From a virus (lineage: Duplodnaviria; Caudoviricetes), in IMG/VR virus record IMGVR_UViG_3300005805_000063, positions 22,634-86,633 of that record: a DNA stretch of 64,000 bases; one strand, given 5' to 3'. The translations under genes and the position numbers were made by a program. The notes below the pieces were generated by a model. The model worked only from the letters and a program-made list of their open reading frames with translations. It had not been told where the DNA came from and did not search any database. Below, in pieces: positions 1-26,103 of this stretch (positions within the stretch are counted from its first letter, which is position 1; each line of letters starts with the position of its first letter).

Positions 1-3000
1 TTAGCTCCACCAAGTTCACGAAATGTAAAATAACGTGGTATTTCTATTCTTTCTATATCAGCTTTCTTAGCTTCTACTTCCGCATACTGAGAGTATAGTT
101 GTTGAGCTTGTTGTTTATTTTTTAACTGCACTTCAAAGTAAGAACCTTTATCAATAGCGTAACCTTTGTCTAATAAAGATTTCCAAACTTTATTTGCAGA
201 TTTATTAATATCTGCTTTGCCAAAAGCTTCTGATTTTAAGGTTTTACCTTCTTTAGCTAATTGTTCTGCTAAAGCAATATATACTTTTGTTCCATACCCT
301 TTACCTTGAAATTCCTTTTCAAGTTCTACACCAGCCATACCTATAGAAGATGATATATAACCATTTTTATCTACAGATATTACACCTGCATATTTCCCAT
401 TTATTTTAATAGGATACGATGTTGCCTCAAAATTATCAGGATTAAATCTTGGTTCATCTAATTGTATTTCAGAAGTATTAGGCGCGGCTTCTTCTGTAGA
501 TATCTCTTCAACTTCATAAACATCCATCAAAGAAGGATGGATTACAAAATGACCACCTTGTAACCCAAAGGCAACCGCTGAGTTACGGATGTTAGTTGCA
601 ATTGTTTGAGTATACTTTGGAGCAATTGTCCTGTCATTAATTGACAGACGATTTACTGAAGCAGCATCGGTTCGATAATTAGACCCATCAGTTGAGAGTA
701 AATCCTCTCTCATGATTTCGCTAAAATATTTTACCCTTTCAGCAACTTTCATTTTACTAAGTTCCTGAATATATGACTTTGTCATATCAGACAAAGTATC
801 ATAGAACTTCTTCAGAACCGGAGAGTTGACCCAGTTAATTGCTATGGCGTTGACTAATTGGGTCAGTACATTTACCTCCATTCCTTGAGACGGGTCTTTG
901 GCACCATCTTGCTGGATACCCTTCATTGTAATATCAATGGTGGATACCTTAGGATTTGGGTCTGAAAGTTTGTTTACTCCTCGCTGACCAGTCTTTTCAG
1001 AAGATTGAAAAATAGCTTCATCAACAATATAGTCTTGAAAACCATTCTCAACCATTATGTCCATTGCCTTTTCAAAAATACCTTCTTGCTTTGTTGCATT
1101 TGAAAAATTAGGATTCATTCCTAATGCAATGATAAGCTGATAAGCATTTGACACAGATTCGCCATTGACCTGAATGACTTCGGGGAAAGTCATAGCAGAG
1201 GTCATCTGAACAAATTTTTCTATTACAAATTCGTTTCCGTTTTCAAGAATATACGGAGTGATTTCAAATTCGGCATTCTTAACAAATGATTTTGTTCCTG
1301 ATTCAAAATCATTTGAATGAGTGATGTTCTTCATAACAGGACCTACAAAAGGACCTGCGTCAAGTGCACTTGAGTAATTCTGTTTTATTCTGGTAAATGG
1401 TGTTACCAGTGTAGCACCATCCATCCATTTTTGAGATACAATTTGACCGTTTGAAAACTTAAGTACATTATTAATAGGGTCTTCAAAACGCATTACATTT
1501 GCAACCCTTGAAAGCTTTTTACCTTCATACATCAATGAGTATGGAAGAGGCTTTCCAGGATTTTGTTGCCTGAACAATGCAACGTCAGCTGCCCAATTTT
1601 TATTCCTCAGTATAAAATACGACTCGGGAGAAATCAAAGACTTAGAGCGTTTTACCATGTCGATAAAAGCTTTCTGTCCTGACTCCTTATACTGGTATTT
1701 TGGACCATTCATTAAATGCTGAAACTCTCCACTAAAGAGTAGCCAGTTGGCGTAGAAGGTTTTAATAAACTCTTCCGGAGTAGCCTTACTAGAAGTTATA
1801 GCTATTTGGTTGTAAAGAGTTACGCCACCACCTCTTTGATTCTTTGAATATTCAACAACTTTCTGTGCATCTGCAAGAATACGGTCTATAAAAGCCTGTT
1901 TATTTGCAGGATTCATGTACATATTAATGTCATCAATCAATTCTTGTTTGATTGACAAAGGTCCTTTTACAGACTTCTCATTGTAATGCACACCGGATAC
2001 CATATTAGGGTACGATATCAAGGTGTTGATTTGGTCTTCAGTAAGTTTTGAAAGTATAGAATTAAGTTCTCCAATGCTTTTTGCAGAAATTCCAACTTCG
2101 CGATAGTCATTCAAAATTTTGAATTCCAAACCAGCATAATACTTGGTTCTGCTATCAAACAAATCTCCAAGTGTTTTTTCTGCTGGCTGCAGGAAATTAT
2201 TTGAATAGAAAATTGGAGATATCTCCTGACTTGCATCTGCATAAACTGTAATCGGGAAAGTAGCTTCGTTTCTTCCGTTTTCAATCTGAGTTACATACCC
2301 CTCAATCAAATAGAGGTCAAGAAGTTCAGGAACAGTTAGCTGACTTACCGACTTAGTAAATTCAAATCCGTTTTTATTAATTTTAAATCCAAGATGTGTA
2401 AACGGAGGCTTTGAAGAAATTCCATAGGAGGAGTTTCCATCCACCAAAAGATTTGTCTGAAGTAGTGGACTTTTCTGAGCACTTGAAACAACATGTTTCA
2501 AATGGAAAATAGGAGCACTATCTCGAAGACCGTACTGACGTTTTCCAGTCCCATCTTTAAATGAGAAGTCATTTCCTAATCCTTTTGCAGAAACAAACTG
2601 CTCAATTATTTTATCCATTACCAATCCAAGGGACGGCAAAGAGGCCTGCTTTTTATTGTAGTTCTTTACAGAAGCAAAGAAGTAATCCTGAATCTGACCA
2701 AGAATTGTAGGGTCTACTGCAATGGCATCTTGAAGCATTTCAGATGTAAATCCTTCAAATCCCATGCCCTTGAGCATGCGTAAAGCATTCTCGGGAGTTA
2801 CATTTTTTTCAACTGTATAGAGTTGACCATTGAGATTTACATCACCGTTAGAAACTGAAATTCTTCCTGTGCTAAGGATTCTTGCGAACTTGTCCAGGAA
2901 TTGAGTTTTGATGTACTGAGGATTAAATCCACCAATTGGAAGCTTAGCCGTTCTTTGCTCACTAGATGTATTCTCGTCATAATAAACGTTAACATCTACA

Positions 3001-6000
3001 AATCCAGGTGAATAAACTTGACCTTTGGTAAGAAAGCTGAGTATTGCGTTGGTTAAATTCTGACCAGCAGGCGTCTCTACTCCACGAGTAGAGTAAGTAA
3101 GGTTATTGGTTTGTGACCCTGTAACAGATGAGGGTTCTGGGGATTTTGAGAAGAATCGCTTATAGATGGCCTTTGCCTCTGGCAATGAGGAGTTGCTTAA
3201 AACTTCTGCAATTTCATCCAATGTTCTAATGGCCTGTCCGTCTGAATTTGTGTTATTCTTAATCAGCTTAAGGACATTGGATATATTCTTAGAGGTGATG
3301 TAATTTCCATTTGCAAGTCTGGTATTGTACAGATAAGTTTTTACAATGGAGTTCATGCCATCTCCAAGGAGATTCTCCATTTCTTTTTCTGCAAAAGAAC
3401 CGGATTTTGACAGGTCATTTCCGTAGTAATACTCGTCTTTTGAACTATTATATTTTATAGAAGGAAAGTACTGTGCCAGTAATCCATTGAAATTGCTTCC
3501 CAAAGCATACTGAATTCGAGACTCAGTATTTGTCTTTTGGGACATGAGATTGCCATTTGACAAATAAATCTTTTTCAGATTTGTCATTGCCTCGTTTGCA
3601 TCAAGGATTCTGGGAGTTCCGCCTTCAGGAACTGTCAGAACAAGATGGCTTGCAACAACATCCTTCTTGAATTTATCAATTGCTTTTCTTGCAAGGTTAG
3701 GTTGATTTGGAAATTCCCTCCTTCTGAATTCAACAATTGAAATCGGATTTACTGAGATGGCCGGTCCTTGTACAGATTCTTGTACACTTTGTTGTACAGT
3801 TTGTTGTACAGTTTTACCAACTGGTTGAACCGGAGCAGCTTCCTTATTTTGAGTAGATATCTCAGAAAGAACTGCCTCAATTGGAATCTGTATCTTAGGA
3901 AGATCCAATTTAAAGTAGTTTGCAGAAATAACCCTATTGAGGAAATTTTCCTGATATGGTACAGATTGAGCATAAAGATTTTGCTCAAATCCTGAACTAC
4001 CTTTTGACAAAACCGGACTAAACCGAAGACCTCTTGAGAAGGCTTTATTCTCCATCATAGCCATTAAGAGTTTCCTCTTAGGCTCTGAGTTCATATTTAA
4101 AAGTTTCTTTGCGTCCTTCTCAAGAGAGATTTTAACATAATCATCTAGCAAATACTCAACTGGATATCCGCCCTCAACTCTTATCTTTTTACCATTGGCA
4201 AGAATTACTTCATGCGCTTTTCTTTCGACATCCATCTTCTTCAAGAACATGTCTACTTGAGGGTCTTTTTTAGACAGCTCTTGTTTTACATTATTGAAAA
4301 TCTCTTCGTAAAGACGTTTGCCCTTTGACCTAGGTGATTGCCAAAATGAATTGTAGAGATTTTTAAATTCAGCACTTGTTGCTTCGTAGTAGCCTTTCTG
4401 ATTTCTACTATAAAACGGAGAAAGTAATTCAACAATTTGGTCCAAGCTCAATGACTCACGATTTAGAGTCATTGTTTTGATGTCGTCTCCTAAAACATCA
4501 AATTCATTGTTATACATCTGCCTGGCCGAGTGTTTATAACTCAGTGCAACAAATGGCTCTCCTTTCAGTACGGATACTTTTCCTTTTGAATTAATTATGT
4601 CAGCCGTTGCTATTAAAATAGGACTTACAGCAATTCCTTTTGACTTTGCCTCTGATAAGATATTTGAGTATGTCTTTTTATCAACGGCTTCAGATTGCTT
4701 ATTTCCATCCGGAGATACATTTTTTGAAGAAGATTCATTTTCAATAAAAGGGTGAAAGAACTGACCCGCCCGTAATATATTATTTGAAACCGGATATGTT
4801 GCTACAATATCCTTTGTTTCACCTTGCGTAATAATATTAAGATTTCGCAAGGTTGTTTCAACCTTCTCACCTCCGGCACGATATATTACACCAAGCACAG
4901 CCCGCTTGTTATCCGGAGTAACTGCTTCAAGAAAGATTGCGTACTTTCCATTGAATTTGGAGGAATCAATTCTTGCATCTGCAACATATCCCGGAGAACC
5001 TATTTTGGCAATTGTAACCTGATAGTTTGAGTTATCGCGGACGCTTGGATTAAACAGAATTGATTTCTTTATTTCCAACTCACCCTGAACATCATAGAAT
5101 GTATTTAACAATACCCTGTTTTCGGTATTGGTCATTGCATTCATTATCCTGCGGTAATCAGCCATCTCCAAATCATCCTGACTTACAGGGCTAGGAGCAG
5201 AAGTTTCAGTTGTTGTTGGTGTCTGAACAACTGGAGGAACGGCCTGAGAAGGAGTTTTGATTGTCTCCGCAGGATTAAAAGAAGAATCAATTGTTTGGCC
5301 TTGAAGGATGCTGTCAATTTCACCAAGCATGGTCTGCTGTGAAATTTCAGGAGGTGTCATTGGCTTAAATTCCTTAACTACCCCCTCAACAGAGCTTACA
5401 GGCATTGAAGGAGATGCGTAAACAATCACACCTTTCTTTGCCCGTGTAACGGCTGTATATACTTCTTTCTGACGGATACTTGAGCCAAATATTTCACCAT
5501 CAGAAGTATCAACAACCACATAATCCCATTCATCACCTTGAGATTGTACGCTATCAAGTACATTCAGTGAAAGTGCACTTGCAGAAGATACAGCTGTATT
5601 TTCAGGATTAGCATTGATGTAAACCATTGAAGAGAGATTCTTTTCACTCTTCAGTTTTGTTGCCAAGTCAACTACTAATTTTTCAAGTTCTTCTTTATTG
5701 CTTACAAAGCGGACTCCGTTAAAATCCTTATCGTAATTCAGAGCAATATTTGAAGGAAGAGCATTGGAAAACTGGGAATTCCTTAAAGCATTTTCAAGAG
5801 CTTTTAAAGGATTGTTTACAGACCTGAATGAGAATGTCAGCCTCGGAGTTGATGGTACAGAAATTACAGGACTTGTAATTGAGTAAGTAGTTTTGCTGTT
5901 TTTCTCCCTAAATCCATTTTGTGCTTCATCATAAGTATAAATTAAATGAACTGGATTATTTGGACGGGATTGATTTACTCTTAAAAGCTCAGTGTTGATT

Positions 6001-9000
6001 TTATTCAATTCACTTGCACTCAGCAAAGCGGCTTCATCAAATATGATTGCAGATACATTTTTAACCTCATTGGATTTCAAGATATCAATAAGGCTTGAAT
6101 CAGAATGCTGAATAAAATCAGGCTTTCCTTTAAAGAACTTTTCTACATCACTACGAACCTTCTGTATTTTCTTTCCTGAAGGGTCTTTATAAGCAGTTAC
6201 AATGACATTTCCACCTGTCATTTTATTTATCATAGCTGCGATAAAAGGAATTTCCGTAACCGTTTTACCTGTTCCGGGGCCTCCGTTTACTGCAGAAGTA
6301 TAACTTAAATGAAACAGTTCTCTGCTAGAATTTTTTACCCTGAAGTCATAATTACCAGCCATTGCATTTCGCAATGCCAATTCTGCAACAAGCTGATGTT
6401 CCCTGGTAGGGGTTTTGACATCGGGTTTAAGTTCAGCAATTACCTCGCGTGCTGCCTGAACAAACTTTGTTGGGTCGTTTGAAAGAACAGCACGAGCGTA
6501 ATCATAGGTATTCTTTGCCAAAATACCTTCATCGGATAACAATTCCGGGTCACCTCCCTTAAATGTCTTTTGAAGTTTCTGCAGTACTTCGGTTCTCTGA
6601 CTTCTAACAAAGTCAAACATCTTTTTATCAACCTGAAGTGACTCTCGACGATAGCTGATATAATCTTGCTTATCAAGAGCTTCCTGCATTTCTACTTCAT
6701 GCTCAGAGAAGATTTCGCCTATTTTTGGAATATCAGTCTCAAGAAGCTTTACAAAATTCTGTAAAACATTAAACTGCTTCTCAAGTGACTTTATATAAAC
6801 CTGAAGAATCCTTGCATCGGTATTCTTTTCATTTTCATCAGAAAGAGCTTTGAGTTGTGCAAACTGGCCTTTCAGAGTGGCCAATGTCAACAGTGCATTC
6901 TTAGTATCATATACTTCTGCGCTGATAATTTCATTGTAACCTTTCTTATTCTTAAGAGCGTAGTTACCTAATACTTGGGAAATCCTGTCGTCAATTACCT
7001 GTATAATACGGTCAGGCTCAGGGCTTACAAACATTTTAGAAAGCCTGTCAGACTCTTCTTTAGGAGTTCCGGTTAATTGACCAGCAGCTCTGGCAAGCTC
7101 TTCCAATTTAGATTCTAAAGGAACGGTTGATTTACCATTCTCAAAATCATAATATAAATGAGAGTCACCCTCAATATCAGGAGCTGTTTTATAAGTTTTC
7201 TTTTGAGAAACTTTATTTACTAATTCCTCGGCTGCAAACAAAGGAGCAACTTTTGCATACCACTCCTCATTCTTATAAGGTTCAACTGCTCTTTTTAATA
7301 CTTCCTGTGAGAATCGGAAACTAAATTCCGGATTTGACGTATGTACAAGAGAAGCATCAAAATCTTCATCATCTGCAAAGATTTCATTAATGATGTTATC
7401 AACTCCTGAGTTTTTATAATTTTCTACTTCCTGATTTCTGCGGGCATTTGCCTCATCCAAAAGACGCTGTTTGGCATCTGGAGTTATGTCAAGCTCATTA
7501 AAGTTGTCCAAATTTGCTTTGGCTGAGTTTTGAATAAGCTCTTGATTTCGCTTTGAAACCTCAGATTTCAACCTGTCACGATTGTTCCTTGAATCAGTAT
7601 TCATCAAGGTGAATAACTTACCATTAAAATGGTCGTTATTTCGTAATCCAAATTCAGTCAGACCTTCAATTCCCAAATCTGAGGAGTCAATAACTGTTGA
7701 TTTCAGATGTGGATTACTCTCGACATTATAGAGACCTTCAGTAATATATCTTGAAACCTGAGACCCGGAATTAAATTCAGAAATCTCAGCTTTTTTAGCC
7801 TCGACTTGTTTGGTGAGATTTTCAATCAGCTGTTTGTCATCTGCTTTTTCTGCATTTTCAAGCTGATTGGTAAGAGTTGCTAGTTCATTTTGCAGGATGA
7901 TTTTATCCCTGCCAATTGAACTGGATTTTAATATATCCGCAAAAATGCCTGCTTTCTTCTCATTGTTTTTAATAGCATCCGTAATACCCGCCCTGTCACG
8001 GATAGTGGACATTGTGTTTAGAATCTCTCTGAGAGCAGTTGCATTTCTTGTGTTCTCGTCTCCCGTTTTTCCATCTTTTGACAAACGACCTGCTTTTTCC
8101 CAATCGTTAATCATTTTATGTACAAAACCTTCGTCATTAAAAGCAACAGCTGCTTCAAATGAATCAACTAATTCCCTATCATAGTTTGATAACTTTTTAA
8201 GAATGGGGTGTGCAATAGCACCGCCAAATGCACCTCCAGCACCTGACTGAAGAATTGCTTCAACTTCCCTTCCCAAATCCCACTGAAAGCGACCCTGTAG
8301 AGGTAGCAGCTCCGCCATTACATTATGCAGACCTCTGATACCAGTATCTACAGTTTGTTCTCCCATTTCCTCAATACCTTCAAGGAATGAGGTTTTAACA
8401 TAAGGCTTTGATGAAAGAGATATCAAAGCACTTTCAAACGTTCTGCCTACTCGATTTTGAAAAGATTTTAATGCAGATTCGGTGAATCCTTTCTTTGCAA
8501 TTGTAACTCCATAGTCTTGAGCAAGTTTTGGAGCTATTATCTTTTCAAGCTCAAGAGGCCTGATTCCGCGAACAATCATGTCGCTTAATCCTGACAACTT
8601 ATATATTGCAGCTGCATTTGCACCATATAGAATTGCAGTTTCAACAGGACTGAGATTATTTTCCCGTGAAATTTGAGCCATGGGGCCTGCTGCCATTCCA
8701 GTCATGTAAATTCGACCGGCTGCTGATGCAGTTTTTGCAGAGCCAGAAAGTGCTCCTGCAACTTTTCCAACTGCACCCATGCTAAACAACTGCATGACAG
8801 AATCAAGACCAAGTTCTGCCAAGTGTACAGGACTAAAGAAGTTTTCTTTGGTTCTATCACTAGAGGGAAGGAGATTTTGTTTCAGTTGATTTTGTATGCC
8901 AGAAACATCTGCTCCAAAAACCCTTGGAAACTCAAGCAATGAGCTGCTTGTACTATTTATAAAATTTGGAACAGATTTAACTACTGTATAAAATCCCTCA

Positions 9001-9632
9001 GACAGATAACTGGGATTTAAACCATAAATGCCCATGTTATGGGCAAAAGAATCATAGCTTTCATCAAAGCTTCTGAACTCCTCATCGGCCTTAATTGGTT
9101 CCCAATAAGTACGATTGTGAGAGTCTCTTTTATAATTACCAAATTCATCCTTGGCAAGCTTAATATCTCCCTTATACTGGGCTACAGGTATATATTCATC
9201 TCCTATTTTTACACCTGTTTTAATTGCTTGCTCCCGCTCACTAAATTTCTTGGGAGAATAGTAATCTCCAAAGTTATTTCTTCCAAAAGGGTCTTCTATC
9301 TGAGTTTTTGTTGAAAAACCAATAAGAGGTTTACGAGACCACTTATCTGTTGCAACATCTATATTGAAGTCAAGTTCGTAATCGGACTTTTTTGTCTGAT
9401 TGTAAACTTCTTTTTGCTTAGAGTAAAAATCAATAAAAGAGTTCTTATCATTCTTAAAATGCTCCTGAACAACAGGAGTTTTCCAGTATGTATCGAGATT
9501 CTCATCAAAGTTGAAATCAGACGCCTTTACCCCAGCAGCCATCAGCTGAGATGGAGTTTTCAGTTGTCCCGAGATGGCAGATGCAATCCAGTCTGGTTTC
9601 GGAGCTTGAGGAATTTGATTTTCATCTCCCAT
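1..9632 (-). CDS. Giant virion cargo protein (>3210 aa, runs off the left edge): N-terminal Gly/Ala-rich region, SF1 helicase, crAss-type virion RNA polymerase region, GNAT insertion
   Basis: Not in the ORF track because its stop lies outside the window. Manual reading from ATG at 9632 (MGDENQIPQAPKPDW...) finds no in-frame stop down to position 3. Motifs are listed in the three domain features. It follows muzzle and cargo genes, as crAss-like vRNAP genes do. Confidence 0.9.
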   Translation of the reverse strand, partial: MGDENQIPQAPKPDWIASAISGQLKTPSQLMAAGVKASDFNFDENLDTYWKTPVVQEHFKNDKNSFIDFYSKQKEVYNQTKKSDYELDFNIDVATDKWSRKPLIGFSTKTQIEDPFGRNNFGDYYSPKKFSEREQAIKTGVKIGDEYIPVAQYKGDIKLAKDEFGNYKRDSHNRTYWEPIKADEEFRSFDESYDSFAHNMGIYGLNPSYLSEGFYTVVKSVPNFINSTSSSLLEFPRVFGADVSGIQNQLKQNLLPSSDRTKENFFSPVHLAELGLDSVMQLFSMGAVGKVAGALSGSAKTASAAGRIYMTGMAAGPMAQISRENNLSPVETAILYGANAAAIYKLSGLSDMIVRGIRPLELEKIIAPKLAQDYGVTIAKKGFTESALKSFQNRVGRTFESALISLSSKPYVKTSFLEGIEEMGEQTVDTGIRGLHNVMAELLPLQGRFQWDLGREVEAILQSGAGGAFGGAIAHPILKKLSNYDRELVDSFEAAVAFNDEGFVHKMINDWEKAGRLSKDGKTGDENTRNATALREILNTMSTIRDRAGITDAIKNNEKKAGIFADILKSSSIGRDKIILQNELATLTNQLENAEKADDKQLIENLTKQVEAKKAEISEFNSGSQVSRYITEGLYNVESNPHLKSTVIDSSDLGIEGLTEFGLRNNDHFNGKLFTLMNTDSRNNRDRLKSEVSKRNQELIQNSAKANLDNFNELDITPDAKQRLLDEANARRNQEVENYKNSGVDNIINEIFADDEDFDASLVHTSNPEFSFRFSQEVLKRAVEPYKNEEWYAKVAPLFAAEELVNKVSQKKTYKTAPDIEGDSHLYYDFENGKSTVPLESKLEELARAAGQLTGTPKEESDRLSKMFVSPEPDRIIQVIDDRISQVLGNYALKNKKGYNEIISAEVYDTKNALLTLATLKGQFAQLKALSDENEKNTDARILQVYIKSLEKQFNVLQNFVKLLETDIPKIGEIFSEHEVEMQEALDKQDYISYRRESLQVDKKMFDFVRSQRTEVLQKLQKTFKGGDPELLSDEGILAKNTYDYARAVLSNDPTKFVQAAREVIAELKPDVKTPTREHQLVAELALRNAMAGNYDFRVKNSSRELFHLSYTSAVNGGPGTGKTVTEIPFIAAMINKMTGGNVIVTAYKDPSGKKIQKVRSDVEKFFKGKPDFIQHSDSSLIDILKSNEVKNVSAIIFDEAALLSASELNKINTELLRVNQSRPNNPVHLIYTYDEAQNGFREKNSKTTYSITSPVISVPSTPRLTFSFRSVNNPLKALENALRNSQFSNALPSNIALNYDKDFNGVRFVSNKEELEKLVVDLATKLKSEKNLSSMVYINANPENTAVSSASALSLNVLDSVQSQGDEWDYVVVDTSDGEIFGSSIRQKEVYTAVTRAKKGVIVYASPSMPVSSVEGVVKEFKPMTPPEISQQTMLGEIDSILQGQTIDSSFNPAETIKTPSQAVPPVVQTPTTTETSAPSPVSQDDLEMADYRRIMNAMTNTENRVLLNTFYDVQGELEIKKSILFNPSVRDNSNYQVTIAKIGSPGYVADARIDSSKFNGKYAIFLEAVTPDNKRAVLGVIYRAGGEKVETTLRNLNIITQGETKDIVATYPVSNNILRAGQFFHPFIENESSSKNVSPDGNKQSEAVDKKTYSNILSEAKSKGIAVSPILIATADIINSKGKVSVLKGEPFVALSYKHSARQMYNNEFDVLGDDIKTMTLNRESLSLDQIVELLSPFYSRNQKGYYEATSAEFKNLYNSFWQSPRSKGKRLYEEIFNNVKQELSKKDPQVDMFLKKMDVERKAHEVILANGKKIRVEGGYPVEYLLDDYVKISLEKDAKKLLNMNSEPKRKLLMAMMENKAFSRGLRFSPVLSKGSSGFEQNLYAQSVPYQENFLNRVISANYFKLDLPKIQIPIEAVLSEISTQNKEAAPVQPVGKTVQQTVQQSVQESVQGPAISVNPISIVEFRRREFPNQPNLARKAIDKFKKDVVASHLVLTVPEGGTPRILDANEAMTNLKKIYLSNGNLMSQKTNTESRIQYALGSNFNGLLAQYFPSIKYNSSKDEYYYGNDLSKSGSFAEKEMENLLGDGMNSIVKTYLYNTRLANGNYITSKNISNVLKLIKNNTNSDGQAIRTLDEIAEVLSNSSLPEAKAIYKRFFSKSPEPSSVTGSQTNNLTYSTRGVETPAGQNLTNAILSFLTKGQVYSPGFVDVNVYYDENTSSEQRTAKLPIGGFNPQYIKTQFLDKFARILSTGRISVSNGDVNLNGQLYTVEKNVTPENALRMLKGMGFEGFTSEMLQDAIAVDPTILGQIQDYFFASVKNYNKKQASLPSLGLVMDKIIEQFVSAKGLGNDFSFKDGTGKRQYGLRDSAPIFHLKHVVSSAQKSPLLQTNLLVDGNSSYGISSKPPFTHLGFKINKNGFEFTKSVSQLTVPELLDLYLIEGYVTQIENGRNEATFPITVYADASQEISPIFYSNNFLQPAEKTLGDLFDSRTKYYAGLEFKILNDYREVGISAKSIGELNSILSKLTEDQINTLISYPNMVSGVHYNEKSVKGPLSIKQELIDDINMYMNPANKQAFIDRILADAQKVVEYSKNQRGGGVTLYNQIAITSSKATPEEFIKTFYANWLLFSGEFQHLMNGPKYQYKESGQKAFIDMVKRSKSLISPESYFILRNKNWAADVALFRQQNPGKPLPYSLMYEGKKLSRVANVMRFEDPINNVLKFSNGQIVSQKWMDGATLVTPFTRIKQNYSSALDAGPFVGPVMKNITHSNDFESGTKSFVKNAEFEITPYILENGNEFVIEKFVQMTSAMTFPEVIQVNGESVSNAYQLIIALGMNPNFSNATKQEGIFEKAMDIMVENGFQDYIVDEAIFQSSEKTGQRGVNKLSDPNPKVSTIDITMKGIQQDGAKDPSQGMEVNVLTQLVNAIAINWVNSPVLKKFYDTLSDMTKSYIQELSKMKVAERVKYFSEIMREDLLSTDGSNYRTDAASVNRLSINDRTIAPKYTQTIATNIRNSAVAFGLQGGHFVIHPSLMDVYEVEEISTEEAAPNTSEIQLDEPRFNPDNFEATSYPIKINGKYAGVISVDKNGYISSSIGMAGVELEKEFQGKGYGTKVYIALAEQLAKEGKTLKSEAFGKADINKSANKVWKSLLDKGYAIDKGSYFEVQLKNKQQAQQLYSQYAEVEAKKADIERIEIPRYFTFRELGGA
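130..420 (-). other. GNAT acetyltransferase-like domain inserted in the giant ORF
   Basis: GVELEKEFQGKGYGTKVYIAL carries the acetyl-CoA-binding motif A (QGKGYG, 291-308), followed by SANKVWKSL, typical of GNAT C-terminal helices. Confidence 0.75.
500..2600 (-). other. crAss-type virion RNA polymerase, beta-like portion, inside the giant ORF
   Basis: Ordered segments PITVYADAS, DMVKRSKSLISP, WMDGATLVTP, KNAEFEIT, VDEAIFQSSEKTG, GIQQD, FGLQGGHFV resemble blocks I recall from crAss/phi14:2-type RNAPs. The DxDxD catalytic motif is not in the window and is expected further left. Confidence 0.7.
5410..6400 (-). other. Superfamily 1 (RecD/UvrD-like) helicase domain inside the giant ORF
   Basis: Walker A GGPGTGKT (6261-6284), Walker B IIFDEA, motif III-like TYDEAQ, motif IV-like RLTFSFRS, motif V SQGDEWDYVVV, motif VI YTAVTRAK, in the correct order. 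Confidence 0.9.
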
Positions 9633-14210: not shown

Positions 14211-14725
14211 TTTTTCGAGTATTTAGTTTTGAATTTCATTCCTTTCTTTCCATAAGCCGGAGCCTGGTATTTGGGCATTTTGTTATAGCTGAGTGCCCCC
14301 TCAGTTGCGTTATTAATTGTTTGTCCTGTCAAACGTGCGGATTCATAATCCCTTTTCGCACGCCTTTCAGCTCCTTGTCCAAATGGTATAAAATTAGCAG
14401 CCATTCCTAATCCCTTTAGTCCAAGTCCAACTGCAGTACCTATACCGGGTACAAGCATTGCCAAATCTCCGGCAGCACTCAGACCGCCTGAAATCTGTTT
14501 TTTGGTAGCTTGATTCTTAGCTAAAGTCTTATTGTAATTATTTGCTGCAACGTTTGCCCAAGGATTTCCATCTTCAAAATCAATGGTGGAATTACTCCTT
14601 GCACCAAAGGCATTTCCCAAAACATCAAAGCCAGCACCAATTCCTTTCATTGATGACTGACTTAGAAAACCTCCTTTTTGATACTTAAAAGGCTTTTTAG
14701 CAAATTTTGATTTGGCTGTTTTCAT
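14207..14725 (-). CDS. Virion cargo protein (172 aa) with Gly/Ala-rich hydrophobic segment
   Basis: Immediately after the muzzle; GLSAAGDLAMLVPGIGTAVGLGLKGLG may insert into membranes. Confidence 0.55.
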   Translation of the reverse strand: MKTAKSKFAKKPFKYQKGGFLSQSSMKGIGAGFDVLGNAFGARSNSTIDFEDGNPWANVAANNYNKTLAKNQATKKQISGGLSAAGDLAMLVPGIGTAVGLGLKGLGMAANFIPFGQGAERRAKRDYESARLTGQTINNATEGALSYNKMPKYQAPAYGKKGMKFKTKYSKK

Positions 14726-14730
14726 GCAGT

Positions 14731-17700
14731 TTACGACCTCGAATATCGGAAATAAGTTAATATACTAGCAAGTTCCAAAGGCTTATTCTTGACCGAGTCA
14801 AAAGAGTAAGTCAATCGAATAATTACATGTTTATCTCTGATGCGACCTTCTATTTCCCAAGTAGTGTATGGGTCATCGTTTCCAGAATTAAATACAGACC
14901 TGACAGGCGCATGAACAACATATCTACGGTCCCTGTAAACGATGGGGGATTTCTCGAGATAACTGTTAACCTCATTCAGCACAACTCCATACTGACCATA
15001 ATCTGTTGTTGCAGTATCCAGAGTAAACTCAATATCATTCTCCTGATTGTAGGTATATACCTCAATCTTATCAGGAGCAACCTCATTTGATACCAGGTTG
15101 AAGTAGTCAATTATTTTTGCAATGGTCACTCCGCGATTGACTACAACCTCAACAATGGTTTGAGTTTCCTGATTGTATAACTGATAGTTTGTAATATCAG
15201 GACTATTATGTTTGTGTGCCTGATTGCCAATAAAGCTGTAGAACTCTTTTCCTCTGCGTGCAAATAAATCAACATCATTCATTGTATAGAATGAGGTGAA
15301 TTTGCCTACAATCTCGCTATAGCACAAAGTCCAATCTTGTGTCTTGAATATGACTTCATTGTTGCTAATATCATACCCGGATGCTGGCAGGCTTGCATCA
15401 TGAAGATTAAGCCATGTTGATATTTGGGCCTCATCAGATATTACACGCAGACCATCTTGTACAGCCCAGATTTTCTTTTTTGCTTGGTCAATACCATATA
15501 CAGCACCAGGAGTCTGAACAAGCGTCATGTTATCCTGCGCTCCAATCTCCCTTGATAGATAGGTCAGGATTGGAGGAAGTACTGTTGTAGGCTCTACAAA
15601 GATTGCGCCCGCGCCATCCTTACCAGTTTCAATACGCTGGTTGATACCTCCAATTCCTATACCATGCTGGAATACAACAAGTACATTCCCTCGATGGTTG
15701 AACATGGCTATAATAGGACCCATTGAGGTATCGTAATCCTTATAGCTGTTTTGCAAGAAAGACCTGTATCCGTTTCTAAAACTGTTCGGTATATGACGCT
15801 CGCTATGATATATGCGATTCATAAACCGTGTTTTCTCTGAAACAATAAGATCTGAAATATTAAAGAAACTCTTTAGTGTAGAAGTTACACTGTATCCTGG
15901 AGAATGAGCAATTGTTTCAGGAAGGCGTACTTTACGATAGTTTGTAACATCTCCTAAAGTCTTGTAAGGAAAGAAACTCCTCTCTTCAAGTTCAGAAGAA
16001 TCGTATTGTTTTTGCTGTCGAAGGTGAAGATTATATTTTGATTCTTGCCACCAAGTAATAATTAATCCAGAATCAATATTCCATCTGTTTTTTGCTTCTC
16101 CACTTCCAGTAAGAAAATTTGATGGATTCCTTTCGGGCGTCTGAGAAAGTCTACGACTAACTTCTGATATATAAGAATCCCCGCCGTAGACCGGAATAAT
16201 ATTTGAGATTGCAGCTGCTTGTGACCAGCTGTAACGACGAGTTACTTGTTTATAAGTAAGATTATCAATTGAAGTATATAAATCATCAGGTGCTGCTGGA
16301 TTTTGCTGAGGGTATATATTTACAAGAAACCCAGCGTTTACAGGATTTGCTCCAAACAATGAATCGTCATACGGATAATTTGCAAATCCTGAGACACAAT
16401 CAACCGTTGAACCATAGGGTAGCGGAGTGAGAATATTATTGATGTTGCTCGCGCTAGGATAGTATAAATATCTTGGACCAATTGGATTGGTACTGGCACT
16501 TCCCCCATCATAGGTTAAAGTTGCCCCTGATATTTTTACACCAAAATAACTATTATACGCCTGATTTACCCAATATTCTTTATCGCCTGTATCTCCGACA
16601 AAACTTTGAGTTTTAAGAGCTACTGTTAATTTAGATACAAAATCGCTTCCTGTTGCAAGACTTTCCTCAGGGACAAACGAAAGTTTTTCTACAAGCTGAG
16701 CATTTGAAGCATAGGTTGAAAAATCAACCATCTTGTAATAGGGAGCAAATCTTCTATATGTTGCATTGCTAGATGCATCTGTAAAATATGGAAAAGAGGT
16801 GGATGCATTAATGGAACCTAACGGCTGTGCTGCAAATTGCAGTTTCATTAATTGCCGAAGACCTGCACCATCTCTTTGAAGAGATGTCACGTATTCTGGC
16901 TGATTCATTAATGCTTCTCCAGATATCAAAGCCCAATGCCTCAGAACCGGAGTTCCTCCTGATATTTCAGAACTGAATATATTTCCAATCAGACTGTGTT
17001 GAAATGGAGAATTGTACCTTAAAGATACAGGCATCAATCCAGCACTCATTTCTCCAAAAGAATCTATTGCAACACTATCCGTAAATCCATTATAGTAGTA
17101 AGCTTCTACAATAGAATCAAAATTGATAAGATGTTTAAAAACAGATAGATTATAAAGAGATGTGTCTCTGTCTTTGTAATATGGAGTAAGACTATTATTT
17201 GAATCAATTGCTTCAGTTGCAGGTGCTTTAATTGTTGGTACAAGTAATCCCTGAGTAAGCATATTTGGCCTTCTTTCTGCACGTACAAAAAAGAATCCAG
17301 CGGCTTGATTTGTTATTGTAGAACTTGATGCTAAAGAAGATACATTGACTGAAAGATATTTTGCACTCAGACTGACCATTGCTGAGTTAAATGGAGGTAC
17401 AGAATTTGAATCTTCAAATGTTACAAGTCCCTTTCCATCATTTATTGCAGCAGATGTCTTATTCTTTGAGCTTATTGGAAATACAGGAGATGTACTTCCA
17501 TCATTCATTATAAAGACAATTCCAAAAGCGTAGGTCTCTCCGCCCATGTACCCGAGATACTTGTAGGTATTTTCAGGGTTTGCATAGCCTTGGAGAGAAC
17601 CTGTAAGTTGGAGAGTTTTGTAGGTAAGTGTAGGGGAAAGATTTCCAGCGGCACTTCTGAGAGAAGTATATGTGATTTCACGCTGTTTTACATCTCCTAA

Positions 17701-18756
17701 GAGATAATAACCCCCAACCTGAGTAGAAGCACTCGCCGACTGAATAGTTGCGTACTCAATATCAACTTCCGATTGTGCAACTTCAGTAACTTCCTCATAT
17801 CCGGTGTGTACAAATTCCATTGCACTGCCGGTAATTTCAATAGGCTCTACAAATTCAAGGTATTGTTGCAGAAGTCCGTCCTGACCAGCTGAGTAGAGAA
17901 CATATATTTTAAGATACCTGAAATTAGTATCAATATTACTCAGAGAGAGTCGTACTCTTTTATTGGTGACTTGAGTTTCATCGCCACCTTCTACATTTGT
18001 CTGACTGGTACCAAAAAATACCTGACATATCGATGATTGTTCTATAACAGAGGTTCTGTTAAAATTCTCAGTCATGTAATAAAATACATACTGGTAGTTA
18101 CCGGGTTTTAACTTACCTCCGCTTTCAATTGCACCGTAATCGACAACAAGAACTTGGGATGTATAAGGAATTAAAGAAGTCTCTTTTTCAACTGTACTTG
18201 TAGTGTATGAATTTGAGGCTTCTATTGCATCCCTGTTGGCAATTATTTCAAAAGTAAATGCCTCAAACTTTGAGTTGACAATCCTTGGTTTTAAGTCTTT
18301 GATTGTAAAGCAAAGATTGACAGAGTTATCAAAGTCCTGCTGAACTTCAAGTTTTTGGATTACAGGCTTAGTGGTCGAAGTTGTTCCAAATAGATTTGTC
18401 CTGAATGGACCTAGATTGAAATTATTGAAAGGACGATATGTATTGTCAAATCCTGAACCACCATATATGGGAGACGGATAAGAACCTAGTTCAATATATC
18501 CGTTGCTCTCATTCCAAGAAATGATATACAGGACATTTGCATATTCCTGAGCCGCTATTGCCTGATATCCTGAAGTTAGCTGAAACGCCTCATCCGTACC
18601 CTGTAAATTGGTGACTACGTACGAGGACGACTGGTGGTTTACAATTCTGAGATTTTGGCCAAAACGCAGCGTGTCTGAAGGCAAGACCATGTCCGAGGGG
18701 TCAATGGCCATACCTTTTGTAAAGGTATTTGACTGTACGTCTTGGTTTACTCTCAT
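14731..18756 (-). CDS. Tail muzzle/stabilisation protein (1341 aa)
   Basis: N-terminus NTFTKGMAID..LRFGQNLRI, GKLKPGNYQYVFYY, GYMGGETYAFGIVFI and C-terminal SFLQNSYKDYDTSMGPI, together with size and position, fit crAss-like muzzle proteins. Confidence 0.75.
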   Translation of the reverse strand: MRVNQDVQSNTFTKGMAIDPSDMVLPSDTLRFGQNLRIVNHQSSSYVVTNLQGTDEAFQLTSGYQAIAAQEYANVLYIISWNESNGYIELGSYPSPIYGGSGFDNTYRPFNNFNLGPFRTNLFGTTSTTKPVIQKLEVQQDFDNSVNLCFTIKDLKPRIVNSKFEAFTFEIIANRDAIEASNSYTTSTVEKETSLIPYTSQVLVVDYGAIESGGKLKPGNYQYVFYYMTENFNRTSVIEQSSICQVFFGTSQTNVEGGDETQVTNKRVRLSLSNIDTNFRYLKIYVLYSAGQDGLLQQYLEFVEPIEITGSAMEFVHTGYEEVTEVAQSEVDIEYATIQSASASTQVGGYYLLGDVKQREITYTSLRSAAGNLSPTLTYKTLQLTGSLQGYANPENTYKYLGYMGGETYAFGIVFIMNDGSTSPVFPISSKNKTSAAINDGKGLVTFEDSNSVPPFNSAMVSLSAKYLSVNVSSLASSSTITNQAAGFFFVRAERRPNMLTQGLLVPTIKAPATEAIDSNNSLTPYYKDRDTSLYNLSVFKHLINFDSIVEAYYYNGFTDSVAIDSFGEMSAGLMPVSLRYNSPFQHSLIGNIFSSEISGGTPVLRHWALISGEALMNQPEYVTSLQRDGAGLRQLMKLQFAAQPLGSINASTSFPYFTDASSNATYRRFAPYYKMVDFSTYASNAQLVEKLSFVPEESLATGSDFVSKLTVALKTQSFVGDTGDKEYWVNQAYNSYFGVKISGATLTYDGGSASTNPIGPRYLYYPSASNINNILTPLPYGSTVDCVSGFANYPYDDSLFGANPVNAGFLVNIYPQQNPAAPDDLYTSIDNLTYKQVTRRYSWSQAAAISNIIPVYGGDSYISEVSRRLSQTPERNPSNFLTGSGEAKNRWNIDSGLIITWWQESKYNLHLRQQKQYDSSELEERSFFPYKTLGDVTNYRKVRLPETIAHSPGYSVTSTLKSFFNISDLIVSEKTRFMNRIYHSERHIPNSFRNGYRSFLQNSYKDYDTSMGPIIAMFNHRGNVLVVFQHGIGIGGINQRIETGKDGAGAIFVEPTTVLPPILTYLSREIGAQDNMTLVQTPGAVYGIDQAKKKIWAVQDGLRVISDEAQISTWLNLHDASLPASGYDISNNEVIFKTQDWTLCYSEIVGKFTSFYTMNDVDLFARRGKEFYSFIGNQAHKHNSPDITNYQLYNQETQTIVEVVVNRGVTIAKIIDYFNLVSNEVAPDKIEVYTYNQENDIEFTLDTATTDYGQYGVVLNEVNSYLEKSPIVYRDRRYVVHAPVRSVFNSGNDDPYTTWEIEGRIRDKHVIIRLTYSFDSVKNKPLELASILTYFRYSRS

Positions 18757-18758
18757 AT

Positions 18759-19469
18759 TTATGCAGGAAGACCAAAGACCTTGCGGTCCATACTGGTCAT
18801 AATGTTGAAGAGATTATCACGTTCATTTGCAGTCAGAGATTCCATAATCATGCTCTGATTTGCCTGAGCCATGTTGCGTTCTTTCCATTGTTCAACCATT
18901 TGCATGGTTTGACCATCGGTTTGTTTCAAAAGAAACAGCGGCTGGTAATATACGTACAATGCATAGTACAGACATCCGTAGAAAGCCGGCTCTGGAACCA
19001 TTGGAAACTTCTCATCATCAAGTTTGATTTCAGTTACCTCAAGGGCAACTTGAATATCTGTTTCGTTGAACTTGACACAAGGACAATCCCATACAAAATC
19101 AATAAATGGTCCTTTGAAGGCGGGGATATAATTATCCTTCAGGAGCTTGATTTCGTTGTTAGTAATATTTGACTCATCGTACTTGAAAATCAGTTGCGGG
19201 GGGTAGTAAACATCATCAGTGACGATTGTCATACCATCCCCTACAACGGGCTGGTCCAAACGAACTGCACCACGCACCTTCCACACATTACCGGGCATGT
19301 TGATACAGTAGTTTGTAACCTGAGCCTGATATACCGACCGTTGAAGTGCGATATATCCCATTTTCTTAAGCGCATCGGCGCAAGCCTGTACAAGCTCGAA
19401 CATATCCATGTCGACCTTGAACTGGGACTTAAGCCTTGCCGCTACAGCACGTATTGAGAAGTATTGCAT
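18759..19469 (-). CDS. Tail ring/tubular protein (236 aa)
   Basis: Directly upstream of the muzzle; LDDEKFPMVPE..FYGCLYY resembles crAss ring proteins. Confidence 0.6.
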   Translation of the reverse strand: MQYFSIRAVAARLKSQFKVDMDMFELVQACADALKKMGYIALQRSVYQAQVTNYCINMPGNVWKVRGAVRLDQPVVGDGMTIVTDDVYYPPQLIFKYDESNITNNEIKLLKDNYIPAFKGPFIDFVWDCPCVKFNETDIQVALEVTEIKLDDEKFPMVPEPAFYGCLYYALYVYYQPLFLLKQTDGQTMQMVEQWKERNMAQANQSMIMESLTANERDNLFNIMTSMDRKVFGLPA

Positions 19470-19472
19470 GTA

Positions 19473-22247: not shown

Positions 22248-22695
22248 GGCTAATATGATAGTTTTGACCTGACATAATTCTCGCCTGCAATTCTTTCCTC
22301 TTCCTTCTCGACAGTCTTACGCCAAAGTTACCTTTTATTCCATTAATTACAACACTGTACTTTTTGCCGTCAGAATGCCAGTTTGCATGGCGATTATTTG
22401 GCTTTGTGTCACCGGCAATCATCCATTTGTTGCCATCAAGCGTTTCAATCCTGTCCCCGTTAATGAGGCAGTCGCTGAGATGAGTTGTAAGCATTTTACA
22501 AAACTTGCCATAAACCATACCTGCCCACCGCACTCTCCGCCTTCCAGCATTATTGTAAGGATAGATTTTTTCTAACTCCTTACGATTATCATTCAACATA
22601 TCAACCATTGGTTTGGTTGAAGCAATGTCCTGTGGAGTAGTTTCCTTATAGTAAACTACTCTACCACAAGGCAGAATATGTTGACGCTTTTTCAT
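22240..22695 (-). CDS. Basic conserved protein in the tail module (possibly IHF/HU-like, as in crAss-like phages)
   Basis: Position, and the basic C-terminal motif VRLSRRKRKELQARIMSGQNY. Confidence 0.4.
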   Translation of the reverse strand: MKKRQHILPCGRVVYYKETTPQDIASTKPMVDMLNDNRKELEKIYPYNNAGRRRVRWAGMVYGKFCKMLTTHLSDCLINGDRIETLDGNKWMIAGDTKPNNRHANWHSDGKKYSVVINGIKGNFGVRLSRRKRKELQARIMSGQNYHISHE

Positions 22696-24506: not shown

Positions 24507-24536
24507 GTTACTTGAAATTTAAAAGTTAAAACTTGG

Positions 24537-26089: not shown

Positions 26090-26103
26090 AGGTTAGTTAA
26101 AAA

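What the first reader, a model, noticed from the sequence alone, without database searches (positions are those of the whole stretch)
1..9632. Unlisted >3200-aa virion polyprotein joining an SF1 helicase and an RNA polymerase in one reading frame
Seen: one uninterrupted minus-strand frame from 9632 to the left edge, missed by the ORF track. Order: Gly/Ala-rich segment with FLEGIEEMGEQ (about 8200-8800), SF1 helicase (5410-6400), Pro/Thr and VQQT linkers, RNAP-like blocks (500-2600), GNAT. Known: crAss-like phages package and eject a large single-chain RNAP (phi14:2 gp66). Inference: a fused, possibly membrane-anchored machine coupling DNA translocation or unwinding to early transcription. phi14:2 vRNAP prefers ssDNA in vitro, so a tethered helicase is mechanistically attractive. 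I cannot say how common this fusion is.
Basis: partly seen in the sequence, partly recalled or inferred. Interest (0 to 1): 0.75.

Follow-up and report, generated by a model that had tools for sequence, protein, structure and literature searches.

The report
Helicase fused to giant phage RNA polymerase
One 4534-residue gene of an uncultured crAss-like phage joins an intact-looking DNA/RNA helicase to the phage's virion-type RNA polymerase, and about 25 related phage lineages keep the same arrangement, which suggests a testable way for this polymerase to get at double-stranded DNA.

Summary
The minus-strand frame from window 9632 runs 3972 nt past the left edge. In full it is a 4534-aa gene with a stop codon. 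It holds a complete SF1 helicase (aa 1112-1405), two low-complexity linkers, and a gp66-type two-barrel virion RNA polymerase (about aa 1960-4534). The catalytic DQDYD motif (aa 3773) lies outside the window.

AlphaFold models of aa 2344-3050 and aa 3590-4200 each have phi14:2 gp66 (PDB 6VR4) as their only significant PDB match. Profile and transitive sequence searches agree. A GNAT plus SLOG cassette (aa 3045-3590) is specific to this lineage.

About 25 protein clusters (50% identity) from independent assemblies share the same helicase-polymerase layout, with the helicase motifs conserved. Two other lineages carry a RecD/Pif1-like helicase at the C-terminus of a gp66-type polymerase, so the fusion recurs.

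Giant fused vRNAP genes are already known in crAss-like phages. I found no paper describing a helicase domain in them. No membrane anchor is predicted. That the helicase supplies single-stranded template for early transcription is inference. Earlier first-reader notes of this scan flagged the same features on this genome.

The parts
1..9632 (-). In-window part (aa 1-3210) of the 4534-aa giant gene. The gene continues 3972 nt left of the window to a stop at record base 18661.
6363..9632 (-). N-terminal conserved module, aa 1-1090, fold unknown. It includes the Gly/Ala-rich stretch and the invariant acidic motif FLEGIEEMGEQ (aa 416-426).
   Evidence: Conserved across 7 and then 25 homologues. 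No Pfam or PHROG hit. No detectable similarity to phi14:2 gp67. No TM-grade hydrophobic segment.
5313..6362 (-). SF1 (RecD-like) helicase module, aa 1091-1440. Motifs: I GGPGTGKT, II IIFDEA, III YDEAQ, FSFRSVN, V SQGDEWDYV, VI YTAVTRAKKG.
   Evidence: Pfam SLFN-g3_helicase 3.6e-7 and UvrD_C_2 2.2e-6, both above the gathering score. TIGR01447 recD 1.9e-7, far below its cut-off. Weak RecD and nsp13 profile hits in the PDB. Motifs conserved in 25 giants.
5178..5270 (-). Pro/Thr-rich low-complexity linker, aa 1455-1485, after the helicase.
   Evidence: Conservation trough (identity 0.21); sequence shown. In more distant polymerase-only relatives, the distance from the N-terminus to the conserved block (about 1000-1200 aa) would put their start near here (inference).
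3858..5165 (-). Middle module, aa 1490-1925, unknown fold, conserved within the clade.
3753..3857 (-). VQQT-repeat linker, aa 1926-1960. Probable start of the gp66-equivalent polymerase module.
   Evidence: Conservation trough; sequence. Position inferred from the gp66 mapping.
501..3752 (-). N-terminal half of the virion RNA polymerase module, aa 1961-3044. The most conserved and strand-rich part is aa about 2700-2910, the probable beta-like barrel.
   Evidence: AlphaFold model of aa 2344-3050 (window 483-2603): pLDDT 83, pTM 0.75. Foldseek top and only significant PDB hit is 6vr4_A, E 8.7e-9, prob 1.00, TMq 0.51. Invariant K2768, K2785 and K2880.
183..455 (-). GNAT acetyltransferase domain, aa 3060-3150. 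It is the first part of a 545-aa cassette (aa 3045-3590) that sits between the two barrels and continues outside the window with a SLOG/DprA-like domain (aa 3412-3546).
   Evidence: Pfam Acetyltransf_1 1.9e-4, 22.1 bits against cut-off 20.7. PHROG 768 at 4.2e-9. The cassette is absent from P0004-P0007 and replaced by a different insert in P0003.
1..2 (-). Marker for the out-of-window continuation (record 18661-22633, aa 3211-4534). It holds the SLOG domain, the catalytic barrel with RIPTSG (aa 3735) and DQDYD (aa 3773-3777), the region aligned to the bridge helix and trigger loop (aa 3840-4165), and the C-terminal region.
   Evidence: AlphaFold model of aa 3590-4200: pLDDT 85.8, pTM 0.82. Foldseek top hit 6vr4_A, E 1.1e-5, followed by bacterial beta-prime chains.

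Best explanation
The frame is a single real gene of 4534 codons in a distant crAss-like phage. It encodes the phage's gp66-type, single-chain, two-barrel virion RNA polymerase (about aa 1960-4534). In front of the polymerase, in the same chain, are a clade-specific N-terminal module (aa 1-1090) and a catalytically intact-looking SF1, RecD-like helicase (aa 1091-1440). Two flexible linkers join the modules. A lineage-specific GNAT plus SLOG cassette sits between the two polymerase barrels.

Most likely mechanism (inferred): the protein is made late, packaged in the capsid and ejected with the DNA, as shown for phi14:2 gp66. Either as one chain or after cleavage at the linkers, the helicase then uses ATP to open or translocate the incoming double-stranded genome. 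This gives the polymerase the single-stranded template it needs for early transcription; in vitro, gp66 transcribes only single-stranded or denatured DNA.

Shown here: the gene, its domains, its homology to 6VR4, and the conservation and recurrence of the helicase-polymerase fusion. Inferred: virion packaging, enzymatic activity, and the coupling of unwinding to transcription.
For: The gene is real and complete:
- One open frame of 4534 codons with a stop; chance about 1e-130.
- It sits in a tight operon, 8 nt after the upstream gene and 3 nt before the downstream gene.

Polymerase identity:
- DQDYD at aa 3773. G182/D184/D186/D188 of the segment are at least 90% conserved in the 41-sequence alignment A3.
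- phi14:2 gp66 hits P0073, P0048 and P0071 by phmmer (8e-31 to 1e-19). The same three are whole-library hits of our aa 3590-4534.
- A 25-sequence profile against gp66 gives E 2.6e-7 (Z=1000) over gp66 1314-1674. hhalign gives 93% probability, E 3.4e-7.
- AlphaFold models of aa 2344-3050 and aa 3590-4200 (pLDDT 83 and 86) each have 6vr4_A as the only significant PDB hit (E 8.7e-9 and 1.1e-5). The second model's next hits are mostly bacterial RNAP beta-prime chains, with a few phage and viral RNAP chains.

Helicase:
- Two Pfam helicase families score above their gathering thresholds.
- Motifs I, II, V and VI and the FSFRS block are conserved across 25 giants down to about 25% identity.
- Within the seven closest homologues the helicase is about as conserved as much of the polymerase (mean column identity 0.48-0.57, against 0.30-0.74 for aa 2600-3050).

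Fusion is conserved and recurrent:
- About 25 cluster representatives (50% identity) of 3.9-4.9 kaa are collinear with ours over N-terminus, helicase and polymerase.
- P0009 (3391 aa) and P0083 (2584 aa) are gp66-type polymerases with a RecD/Pif1-like helicase at the C-terminus instead (AAA_30 3.5e-15 and 9.2e-28).

Context:
- TerL, portal and major capsid genes are of crAss type.
- A 1415-aa gene follows the giant, as g065 follows g066 in phi14:2.

Biochemical rationale:
- gp66 is virion-packaged and transcribes single-stranded or denatured DNA in vitro. The related QDE-1 needs the helicase QDE-3 and RPA (bioRxiv 10.1101/2020.03.07.982082, read).
Against: - Nothing here shows the protein in virions, any enzymatic activity, or contact between the helicase and the polymerase.
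- Drobysheva et al. expect such giants to be cleaved, so the helicase could act apart from the polymerase.
- Helicase subfamily and polarity are unresolved. The recD model scores 30 bits against a cut-off of 310, and the PDB hits are only E 0.025-0.05.
- The well-studied crAss polymerases phi14:2 gp66 and cr113_1 gp38 have no Pfam-detectable helicase, so a helicase in cis is not a general requirement.
- The N-terminal 1900 aa shows no detectable similarity to phi14:2 gp67, so its role is open.
- Residue-level structural superposition on 6VR4 was not possible because the VIA-align libraries were unavailable.
Confidence: 0.55

Rival explanations
1. The giant is a polyprotein that is cleaved at the linkers. 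The released N-terminal helicase product works apart from transcription, as part of the ejection apparatus or as a motor that pulls the genome into the cell.
For: - Two poorly conserved low-complexity linkers lie at the module borders.
- In more distant polymerase-only relatives, the offset of the conserved polymerase block from the N-terminus would place their start near the first linker (inference).
- Drobysheva et al. propose cleavage of fused giants.
- The conserved N-terminal 1090 aa has no polymerase counterpart.
Against: - No protease domain or HExxH motif is found in the giant.
- No transmembrane segment is predicted.
- Two other lineages attach a helicase directly to the C-terminus of the polymerase. 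This points to a link with the polymerase rather than with an N-terminal ejection module.
Confidence: 0.2
2. The helicase teams with the PD-(D/E)XK nuclease of the neighbouring 1415-aa cargo-like protein. Together they would form an injected RecB/AddAB-like end-processing or anti-defence machine that protects phage DNA ends or degrades host DNA, not a transcription aid.
For: - The gene directly downstream carries a PD-(D/E)XK domain (Pfam 1.8e-4).
- The nearest named helicase model is RecD.
- An earlier first-reader note (e1-5918965) raised the same idea.
Against: - PD-(D/E)XK nucleases are common throughout crAss-like genomes (PMC7886860). A second one lies in the replication block here.
- The C-terminal helicase fusions in P0009 and P0083 were found on polymerases, with no nuclease seen in the same chain.
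Confidence: 0.1
3. The helicase acts on RNA or on RNA-DNA hybrids. It would strip the transcript from the single-stranded template or end transcription, in the way SF1B helicases such as Sen1 or coronavirus nsp13 act beside their polymerases.
For: - The best Pfam match is the Schlafen group 3 DNA/RNA helicase family.
- The family profile weakly matches nsp13 motifs V-VI (E 0.04).
- Transcription of single-stranded DNA would leave long hybrids unless the strands are separated (inference).
Against: The matches are weak and cover only generic SF1 motifs. Nothing in the sequence tells RNA from DNA substrates.
Confidence: 0.1
4. The helicase domain is a decayed passenger or an assembly artefact with no present function.
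For: Only that its Pfam scores are modest (30 and 28 bits).
Against: - All catalytic motifs are kept in 25 independent, divergent homologues.
- It is about as conserved as much of the polymerase.
- The same single frame appears in assemblies from NCBI, ENA, JGI and Logan.
Confidence: 0.03

Closest known systems
phi14:2 gp66, virion-packaged DNA-dependent RNA polymerase of a crAss-like phage (PDB 6VR4; Drobysheva et al.)
   Same: - Single-chain two-barrel polymerase with a DxDxD motif.
- Both halves of the core give 6VR4 as the only significant fold match.
- Profile homology over the catalytic barrel, bridge-helix and trigger-loop region.
- The same place in the gene order, followed by a roughly 1400-aa gene.
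   Different: - gp66 is 2180 aa and has no Pfam-detectable helicase, GNAT or SLOG domain.
- Here about 1950 extra N-terminal residues, including an SF1 helicase, lie in the same chain, and a 545-aa cassette lies between the barrels.
- The motif is DQDYD rather than DFDID.
- Sequence identity is so low that a direct PDB sequence search finds nothing.
Fused giant vRNAP genes of gut crAss-like phages, e.g. cr113_1 gp38 (NC_055896, Suoliviridae, 4328 aa)
   Same: - Similar size and nearly collinear placement of the polymerase blocks (profile positions 2127-3486 against residues 1970-3454).
- A long N-terminal extension.
- A SLOG/DprA-like domain in the same chain.
   Different: - cr113_1 gp38 has no Pfam helicase and no Walker A motif.
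- It is read with TAG as glutamine.
- Its SLOG domain is C-terminal, not between the barrels.
- Its N-terminal extension shows no significant similarity to ours.
gp66-type polymerases with a C-terminal RecD/Pif1-like helicase (P0009, 3391 aa; P0083, 2584 aa; unannotated metagenome proteins)
   Same: An SF1 helicase and a crAss-type virion polymerase in one chain.
   Different: - The helicase is at the C-terminus.
- It is of a more canonical Dda/RecD type. P0009's helicase resembles replicative helicases of N4-like and crAss-like phages.
- The different position indicates separate fusion events.
Helicase-polymerase partnerships elsewhere: Neurospora QDE-1 with QDE-3 and RPA; coronavirus nsp13 with the RdRp; N4 virion RNAP with host gyrase and SSB
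   Same: A polymerase that needs single-stranded or specially structured template is paired with a helicase or DNA-remodelling factor. QDE-1 is the closest structural relative of gp66.
   Different: - In those systems the partners are separate proteins, or separate products of an RNA-virus polyprotein.
- The N4 polymerase is T7-like, not two-barrel.
- These comparisons rest on the paper read and on general knowledge, not on tests here.

Membership tests
crAss-like virion RNA polymerase (gp66-type single-chain two-barrel RNAP) | DxDxD metal-binding motif in the beta-prime-like double-psi barrel | tested here: met
   DQDYD at aa 3773-3777. G, D, D and D are at least 90% conserved in the 41- and 32-sequence alignments.
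crAss-like virion RNA polymerase (gp66-type single-chain two-barrel RNAP) | Sequence homology to phi14:2 gp66 over the catalytic region | tested here: met
   - Transitive phmmer links through P0073, P0048 and P0071.
- 25-sequence profile E 2.6e-7 at Z=1000.
- hhalign 93% probability.
- Direct searches against PDB sequences fail.
crAss-like virion RNA polymerase (gp66-type single-chain two-barrel RNAP) | Fold of both core halves matches 6VR4 | tested here: met
   Foldseek: aa 2344-3050 gives 6vr4_A at E 8.7e-9, TMq 0.51. aa 3590-4200 gives 6vr4_A at E 1.1e-5, TMq 0.39, followed by beta-prime chains.
crAss-like virion RNA polymerase (gp66-type single-chain two-barrel RNAP) | Second (beta-like) barrel with conserved basic residues, located residue by residue | tested here: inconclusive
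   A strand-rich, highly conserved stretch at aa about 2710-2910 has invariant K2768, K2785 and K2880.
crAss-like virion RNA polymerase (gp66-type single-chain two-barrel RNAP) | Packaged in the virion and responsible for early transcription | not testable with these tools
   Only gene position and orientation alongside the structural genes.
Superfamily 1 helicase | Walker A, Walker B and motifs III, V, VI in order, with family-profile scores above threshold | tested here: met
   SLFN-g3_helicase 30.2 bits (cut-off 24) and UvrD_C_2 27.9 bits (cut-off 27.4). Motifs are conserved in 25 homologues.
RecD/Dda/Pif1 (SF1B) subfamily | Specific match to subfamily models | tested here: inconclusive
   - TIGR01447 recD 30 bits against cut-off 310.
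- AAA_30 16 bits, below cut-off.
- PDB profile hits to RecD and nsp13 at E 0.025-0.05.
- No tblastn match to any phage helicase even at E 1.
Crassvirales / crAss-like phages | crAss-type major capsid, portal and large terminase genes plus the giant polymerase block | tested here: met
   - PHROG hits for MCP 6.7e-42, portal 1.3e-70 and TerL 1.2e-68.
- The MCP's best tblastn hits are crAss-like phages at about 25% identity.
- The replication block has SF2 and DnaB-type helicases, an AAA ATPase and a PD-(D/E)XK nuclease.
- Formal taxonomic placement was not attempted.
Orthologue of phi14:2 gp67 (for the N-terminal 1950 aa) | Detectable sequence or profile similarity to gp67 and its relatives | tested here: not met
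   hhalign probability 0.1% against a 5-sequence gp67 alignment. hmmsearch E 4. Only position and size agree.
GNAT acetyltransferase (insert domain) | Pfam Acetyltransf_1 above the gathering score, with a Q/RxxGxG/A motif | tested here: met
   22.1 bits against cut-off 20.7, aa 3060-3150. The motif QGKGYG is present. This is a marginal score.

The most novel reading that the evidence does not exclude
The helicase is the missing template-opening partner of crAss-type virion polymerases. The evidence would be its repeated, independent fusion to the polymerase, N-terminal in about 25 lineages and C-terminal in at least two. On this reading these polymerases, which handle only single-stranded DNA in vitro, depend in vivo on an SF1 helicase. 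Phages without a fused helicase would then use a separate phage or host helicase, which echoes the QDE-1/QDE-3 pairing in eukaryotic RNA interference.
Probability: 0.3. Interest if true: 0.75.

Novelty: new variant of a known kind. Interest (0 to 1): 0.6.

Why it matters
crAss-like phages are among the most abundant gut and environmental viruses. Their virion polymerase is the closest known relative of the eukaryotic RNA-interference polymerases. The one studied enzyme, phi14:2 gp66, transcribes only single-stranded or denatured DNA in vitro, so how it starts on the injected double-stranded genome is open.

A conserved helicase built into the polymerase gene, in several lineages and in two different arrangements, gives a concrete candidate for that step. 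It also gives a defined construct to test: the polymerase module with and without the helicase module and ATP.

The finding also shows that the giant polymerase genes are modular platforms. Helicase, GNAT, SLOG, NADAR and DUF1848 domains are found in different relatives. The clade described here is absent from the 50,697 deposited phage genomes searched.

Tried and rejected
Searches that found nothing useful:
- Direct phmmer and 7-sequence profile searches of PDB sequences found only weak RecD and nsp13 hits and not 6VR4. Homology to gp66 had to be shown by a deeper profile, transitive hits and predicted folds.
- tblastn of aa 1-1744 and of the helicase alone against 50,697 phage records gave no match, even at E 1.
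- tblastn of aa 3023-4534 matched only through the SLOG domain.
- A search for shorter (split) relatives of aa 1-1500 gave none. This negative is weak, because only 8000 word-sharing candidates were scored.
- IMG/VR and metagenome scans for related loci returned only an unrelated 406-aa helicase (L007), a 2.2-kb fragment (L008) and the Pylas-like record.

Ideas tested and not supported:
- That the N-terminal 1950 aa equals phi14:2 gp67.
- A membrane anchor.
- A protease motif in the giant. There is no HExxH; one HEDLH occurs in the downstream protein, and it has no protease-family hit.

- The pdb_via and pdb_via_wide libraries, so no residue ranges for the 6VR4 superposition.
- The protein atlas, for new sequences.

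Literature:
- Yutin et al. 2018 (PMC5736458) is not held. I could not check whether its figures already mark a helicase in any giant.
- Three further literature searches found no such description.
Full report
**Observation.** With open ends allowed, the window shows one minus-strand frame at 3..9632 (3210 aa) that runs off the left edge. The window is bases 22634-86633 of an 86,633-nt viral record that CheckV rates about 56% complete. In the whole record the frame continues for another 3972 nt to a stop: record 18661-32265, 4534 aa. From base composition, an open frame of that length has a chance of about 1e-130. The ORF track missed the frame only because it crosses the window's edge. The gene is packed tightly between a 580-aa gene (8 nt upstream) and a 1415-aa gene (3 nt downstream), all on the same strand as the structural genes.

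**The phage.** TerL, portal and major capsid proteins match PHROG families at 1e-68, 1e-70 and 7e-42. The capsid protein's best tblastn matches are crAss-like phages (cr114_1, cr272_1, cr130_1, Flavobacterium phages) at about 25% identity. The plus-strand block carries SF2 and DnaB-type helicases, an AAA ATPase, a PD-(D/E)XK nuclease and an exonuclease-domain protein, much like the crAss replication block described in PMC7886860. This is a distant crAss-like phage.

**Domain map.**
- aa 1-1090: conserved N-terminal module with no family match. It includes a Gly/Ala-rich stretch and the invariant acidic motif FLEGIEEMGEQ.
- aa 1091-1440: SF1 helicase.
- aa 1455-1485: Pro/Thr linker.
- aa 1490-1925: conserved module of unknown fold.
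- aa 1926-1960: VQQT linker.
- aa 1961-3044: first half of the polymerase.
- aa 3045-3590: GNAT (Pfam 1.9e-4, just above cut-off) plus a SLOG/DprA-like domain (PHROG 768, 4e-9).
- aa 3590-4534: second half of the polymerase, with RIPTSG at aa 3735 and DQDYD at aa 3773.

Everything after aa 3210 lies outside the window.

**Is it an RNA polymerase?** Direct sequence searches of the PDB do not find gp66. Three other lines of evidence do.
1. *Transitive homology.* A whole-library phmmer search with aa 3590-4534 found 71 cluster representatives. phi14:2 gp66, taken from NC_021806, hits three of them directly: P0073, P0048 and P0071, at 8e-31 to 1e-19. Iterated within that set, gp66 1292-1380 aligns with our aa 3706-3792, and gp66 1462-1791 aligns with our aa 3840-4165. 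The second stretch holds the bridge helix and trigger loop as numbered in bioRxiv 10.1101/2020.03.07.982082.
2. *Profiles.* A 25-sequence profile of the clade matches gp66 1314-1674 at E 2.6e-7 (Z=1000). hhalign gives 93% probability.
For the second model the next hits are mostly bacterial beta-prime chains, with a few from the AR9, PhiKZ and ASFV polymerases.

I could not place the beta-like barrel residue by residue, because the VIA-align libraries were not on the machine.

**Is the helicase real and functional-looking?** Two Pfam helicase families score above their gathering thresholds. The nearest named models are RecD (TIGR01447, far below its cut-off) and, by profile, RecD and nsp13 in the PDB at E 0.025-0.05. 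The subfamily is therefore not settled. Motif I (GxGKT/S), motif II (DEA), the FSFRS block, motif V (QGxEW) and motif VI (YTAxTRA) are kept in all 25 full-length relatives, down to about 25% overall identity. Among the seven closest homologues the helicase columns are about as conserved as much of the polymerase: mean identity 0.48-0.57, against 0.30-0.74 for aa 2600-3050. This is the pattern of a working enzyme, not a relic.

**How common is the fusion?**
- *Same layout.* Seven proteins of 3179-4393 aa (39-67% identity) are collinear with ours over aa 1-3044 and aa 3590-4534. Among the 71 representatives, about 25 giants of 3.9-4.9 kaa carry N-terminus, helicase and polymerase in the same order. 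They come from NCBI, ENA, JGI and Logan assemblies, are singletons, and are unannotated.
- *The cassette.* The GNAT/SLOG cassette is absent from P0004-P0007 and replaced by a different insert in P0003.
- *No helicase.* Roughly 20 more distant polymerases of 1.9-5.1 kaa lack a helicase.
- *Helicase at the other end.* P0009 (3391 aa) is a close gp66 relative followed by a SLOG domain and a C-terminal AAA_30/UvrD_C_2 helicase. The P0083/P0069 cluster (2584 aa) is a polymerase followed by an AAA_30 helicase at 9e-28. P0009's helicase resembles the Dda/RecD-type replicative helicases of N4-like and crAss-like phages. Helicases have therefore joined this polymerase more than once, at different ends.
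- *Known crAss polymerases.* phi14:2 gp65, gp66 and gp67 have no Pfam domains. The 4328-aa, TAG-recoded giant gp38 of cr113_1 is nearly collinear with our clade in its polymerase part but has no helicase.
- *Deposited phage genomes.* No record among the 50,697 searched matches our N-terminal 1744 aa or our helicase.

[quoted passage not shown] Drobysheva et al. state that in some phages the gp65, gp66 and gp67 equivalents are fused into one polyprotein that is probably cleaved. The fusion as such is therefore not new. By position and size our N-terminal 1950 aa stands where gp67 stands, but no profile similarity to gp67 or to the cr113_1 extension could be found. I found no paper that describes a helicase domain inside these giants. 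Yutin et al. 2018 could not be read, so prior mention cannot be excluded.

**Mechanism.** Shown here: one gene, its domain order, an intact helicase signature, homology and fold match to a polymerase proven to be virion-packaged, and conservation and recurrence of the fusion. Inferred: the protein is packaged and ejected, and the helicase (still tethered, or released at the linkers) opens or tracks along the incoming double-stranded genome. That would give the polymerase, whose studied relative uses only single-stranded or denatured DNA in vitro, a template for early genes. I put this at about 0.55.

Rivals are listed here with my estimates:
- A cleaved N-terminal product that serves ejection or DNA entry (0.2).
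- Cooperation with the neighbouring PD-(D/E)XK protein as a RecB-like end-processing or anti-defence machine (0.1).
- Action on RNA-DNA hybrids to release transcripts (0.1).
- A functionless passenger (0.03, contradicted by conservation).

The suggested membrane anchor is not supported. The most hydrophobic 19-aa window scores 1.23 on the Kyte-Doolittle scale.

**Earlier notes of this scan.** First-reader notes on the same genome had already flagged the helicase fusion, the GNAT/SLOG cassette and the neighbouring nuclease. I tested these points independently, and they hold as observations.

**Verdict.** It is a new variant of a known kind: a crAss-type virion polymerase with a built-in, conserved SF1 helicase. 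It is of moderate to good interest because it offers a direct experimental handle on how these polymerases engage double-stranded DNA.

Noticed in passing
record 20590-22497, left of the window (aa 3045-3590 of the giant; GNAT part at window 183-455): The GNAT plus SLOG cassette sits between the two polymerase barrels only in this phage. P0003 has a different insert of about 400 aa at the same point, and P0004-P0007 have none, so the site looks like a hot spot for domain insertion.
   Followed up: partly
homologue P0008 (3179 aa), equivalent to window position about 500: This relative ends about 130 aa after the insertion point between the barrels. In that phage the giant gene may be split into beta-like and beta-prime-like halves.
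   Followed up: no
SLOG domain, aa 3412-3588 (outside the window); L006 10001-10534: The SLOG/DprA-like domain is 49% identical to a stretch inside the gene annotated as virion RNA polymerase in the N4-like Klebsiella phage Pylas. It also occurs at the C-terminus of cr113_1 and cr109_1 giants and in jumbo phages. The same accessory domain therefore appears on unrelated kinds of virion polymerase.
   Followed up: partly
record 14413-18657 (4 kb left of the window), L003:414-4658 minus strand: The 1415-aa gene directly downstream has a PD-(D/E)XK nuclease domain at aa 109-223 (Pfam 1.8e-4). Its C-terminus weakly matches that of phi14:2 gp65 in collinear order (23% identity, E 0.008 in a 4-sequence search). 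It probably stands in gp65's place, but with a nuclease instead of the reported zincin protease.
   Followed up: partly
whole giant ORF (window 1-9632 and beyond): The protein has a single cysteine in 4534 residues. It lies near the C-terminus and is nearly invariant across the clade.
   Followed up: no
window 8355-8387 (aa 416-426): The acidic motif FLEGIEEMGEQ, with invariant E418, E421, E422, E425 and Q426, resembles ALEGAEEG at a similar distance from the N-terminus of cr113_1 gp38. The match is not statistically significant (hhalign probability 0.65%).
   Followed up: partly
L009 1845-14831 (NC_055896 cr113_1 gp38): This deposited 4328-aa giant contains 73 in-frame TAG codons and reads through only with TAG as glutamine. 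It is annotated merely as 'DprA-like DNA recombination-mediator protein', although it carries the gp66-like polymerase (DFDID at aa 3220).
   Followed up: yes
homologue P0010 (4536 aa): Another giant with a DFDID polymerase core carries NADAR (4e-12), DUF1848 (1e-14) and SLOG domains upstream of the polymerase. This is further evidence that these giants collect accessory enzyme domains.
   Followed up: partly
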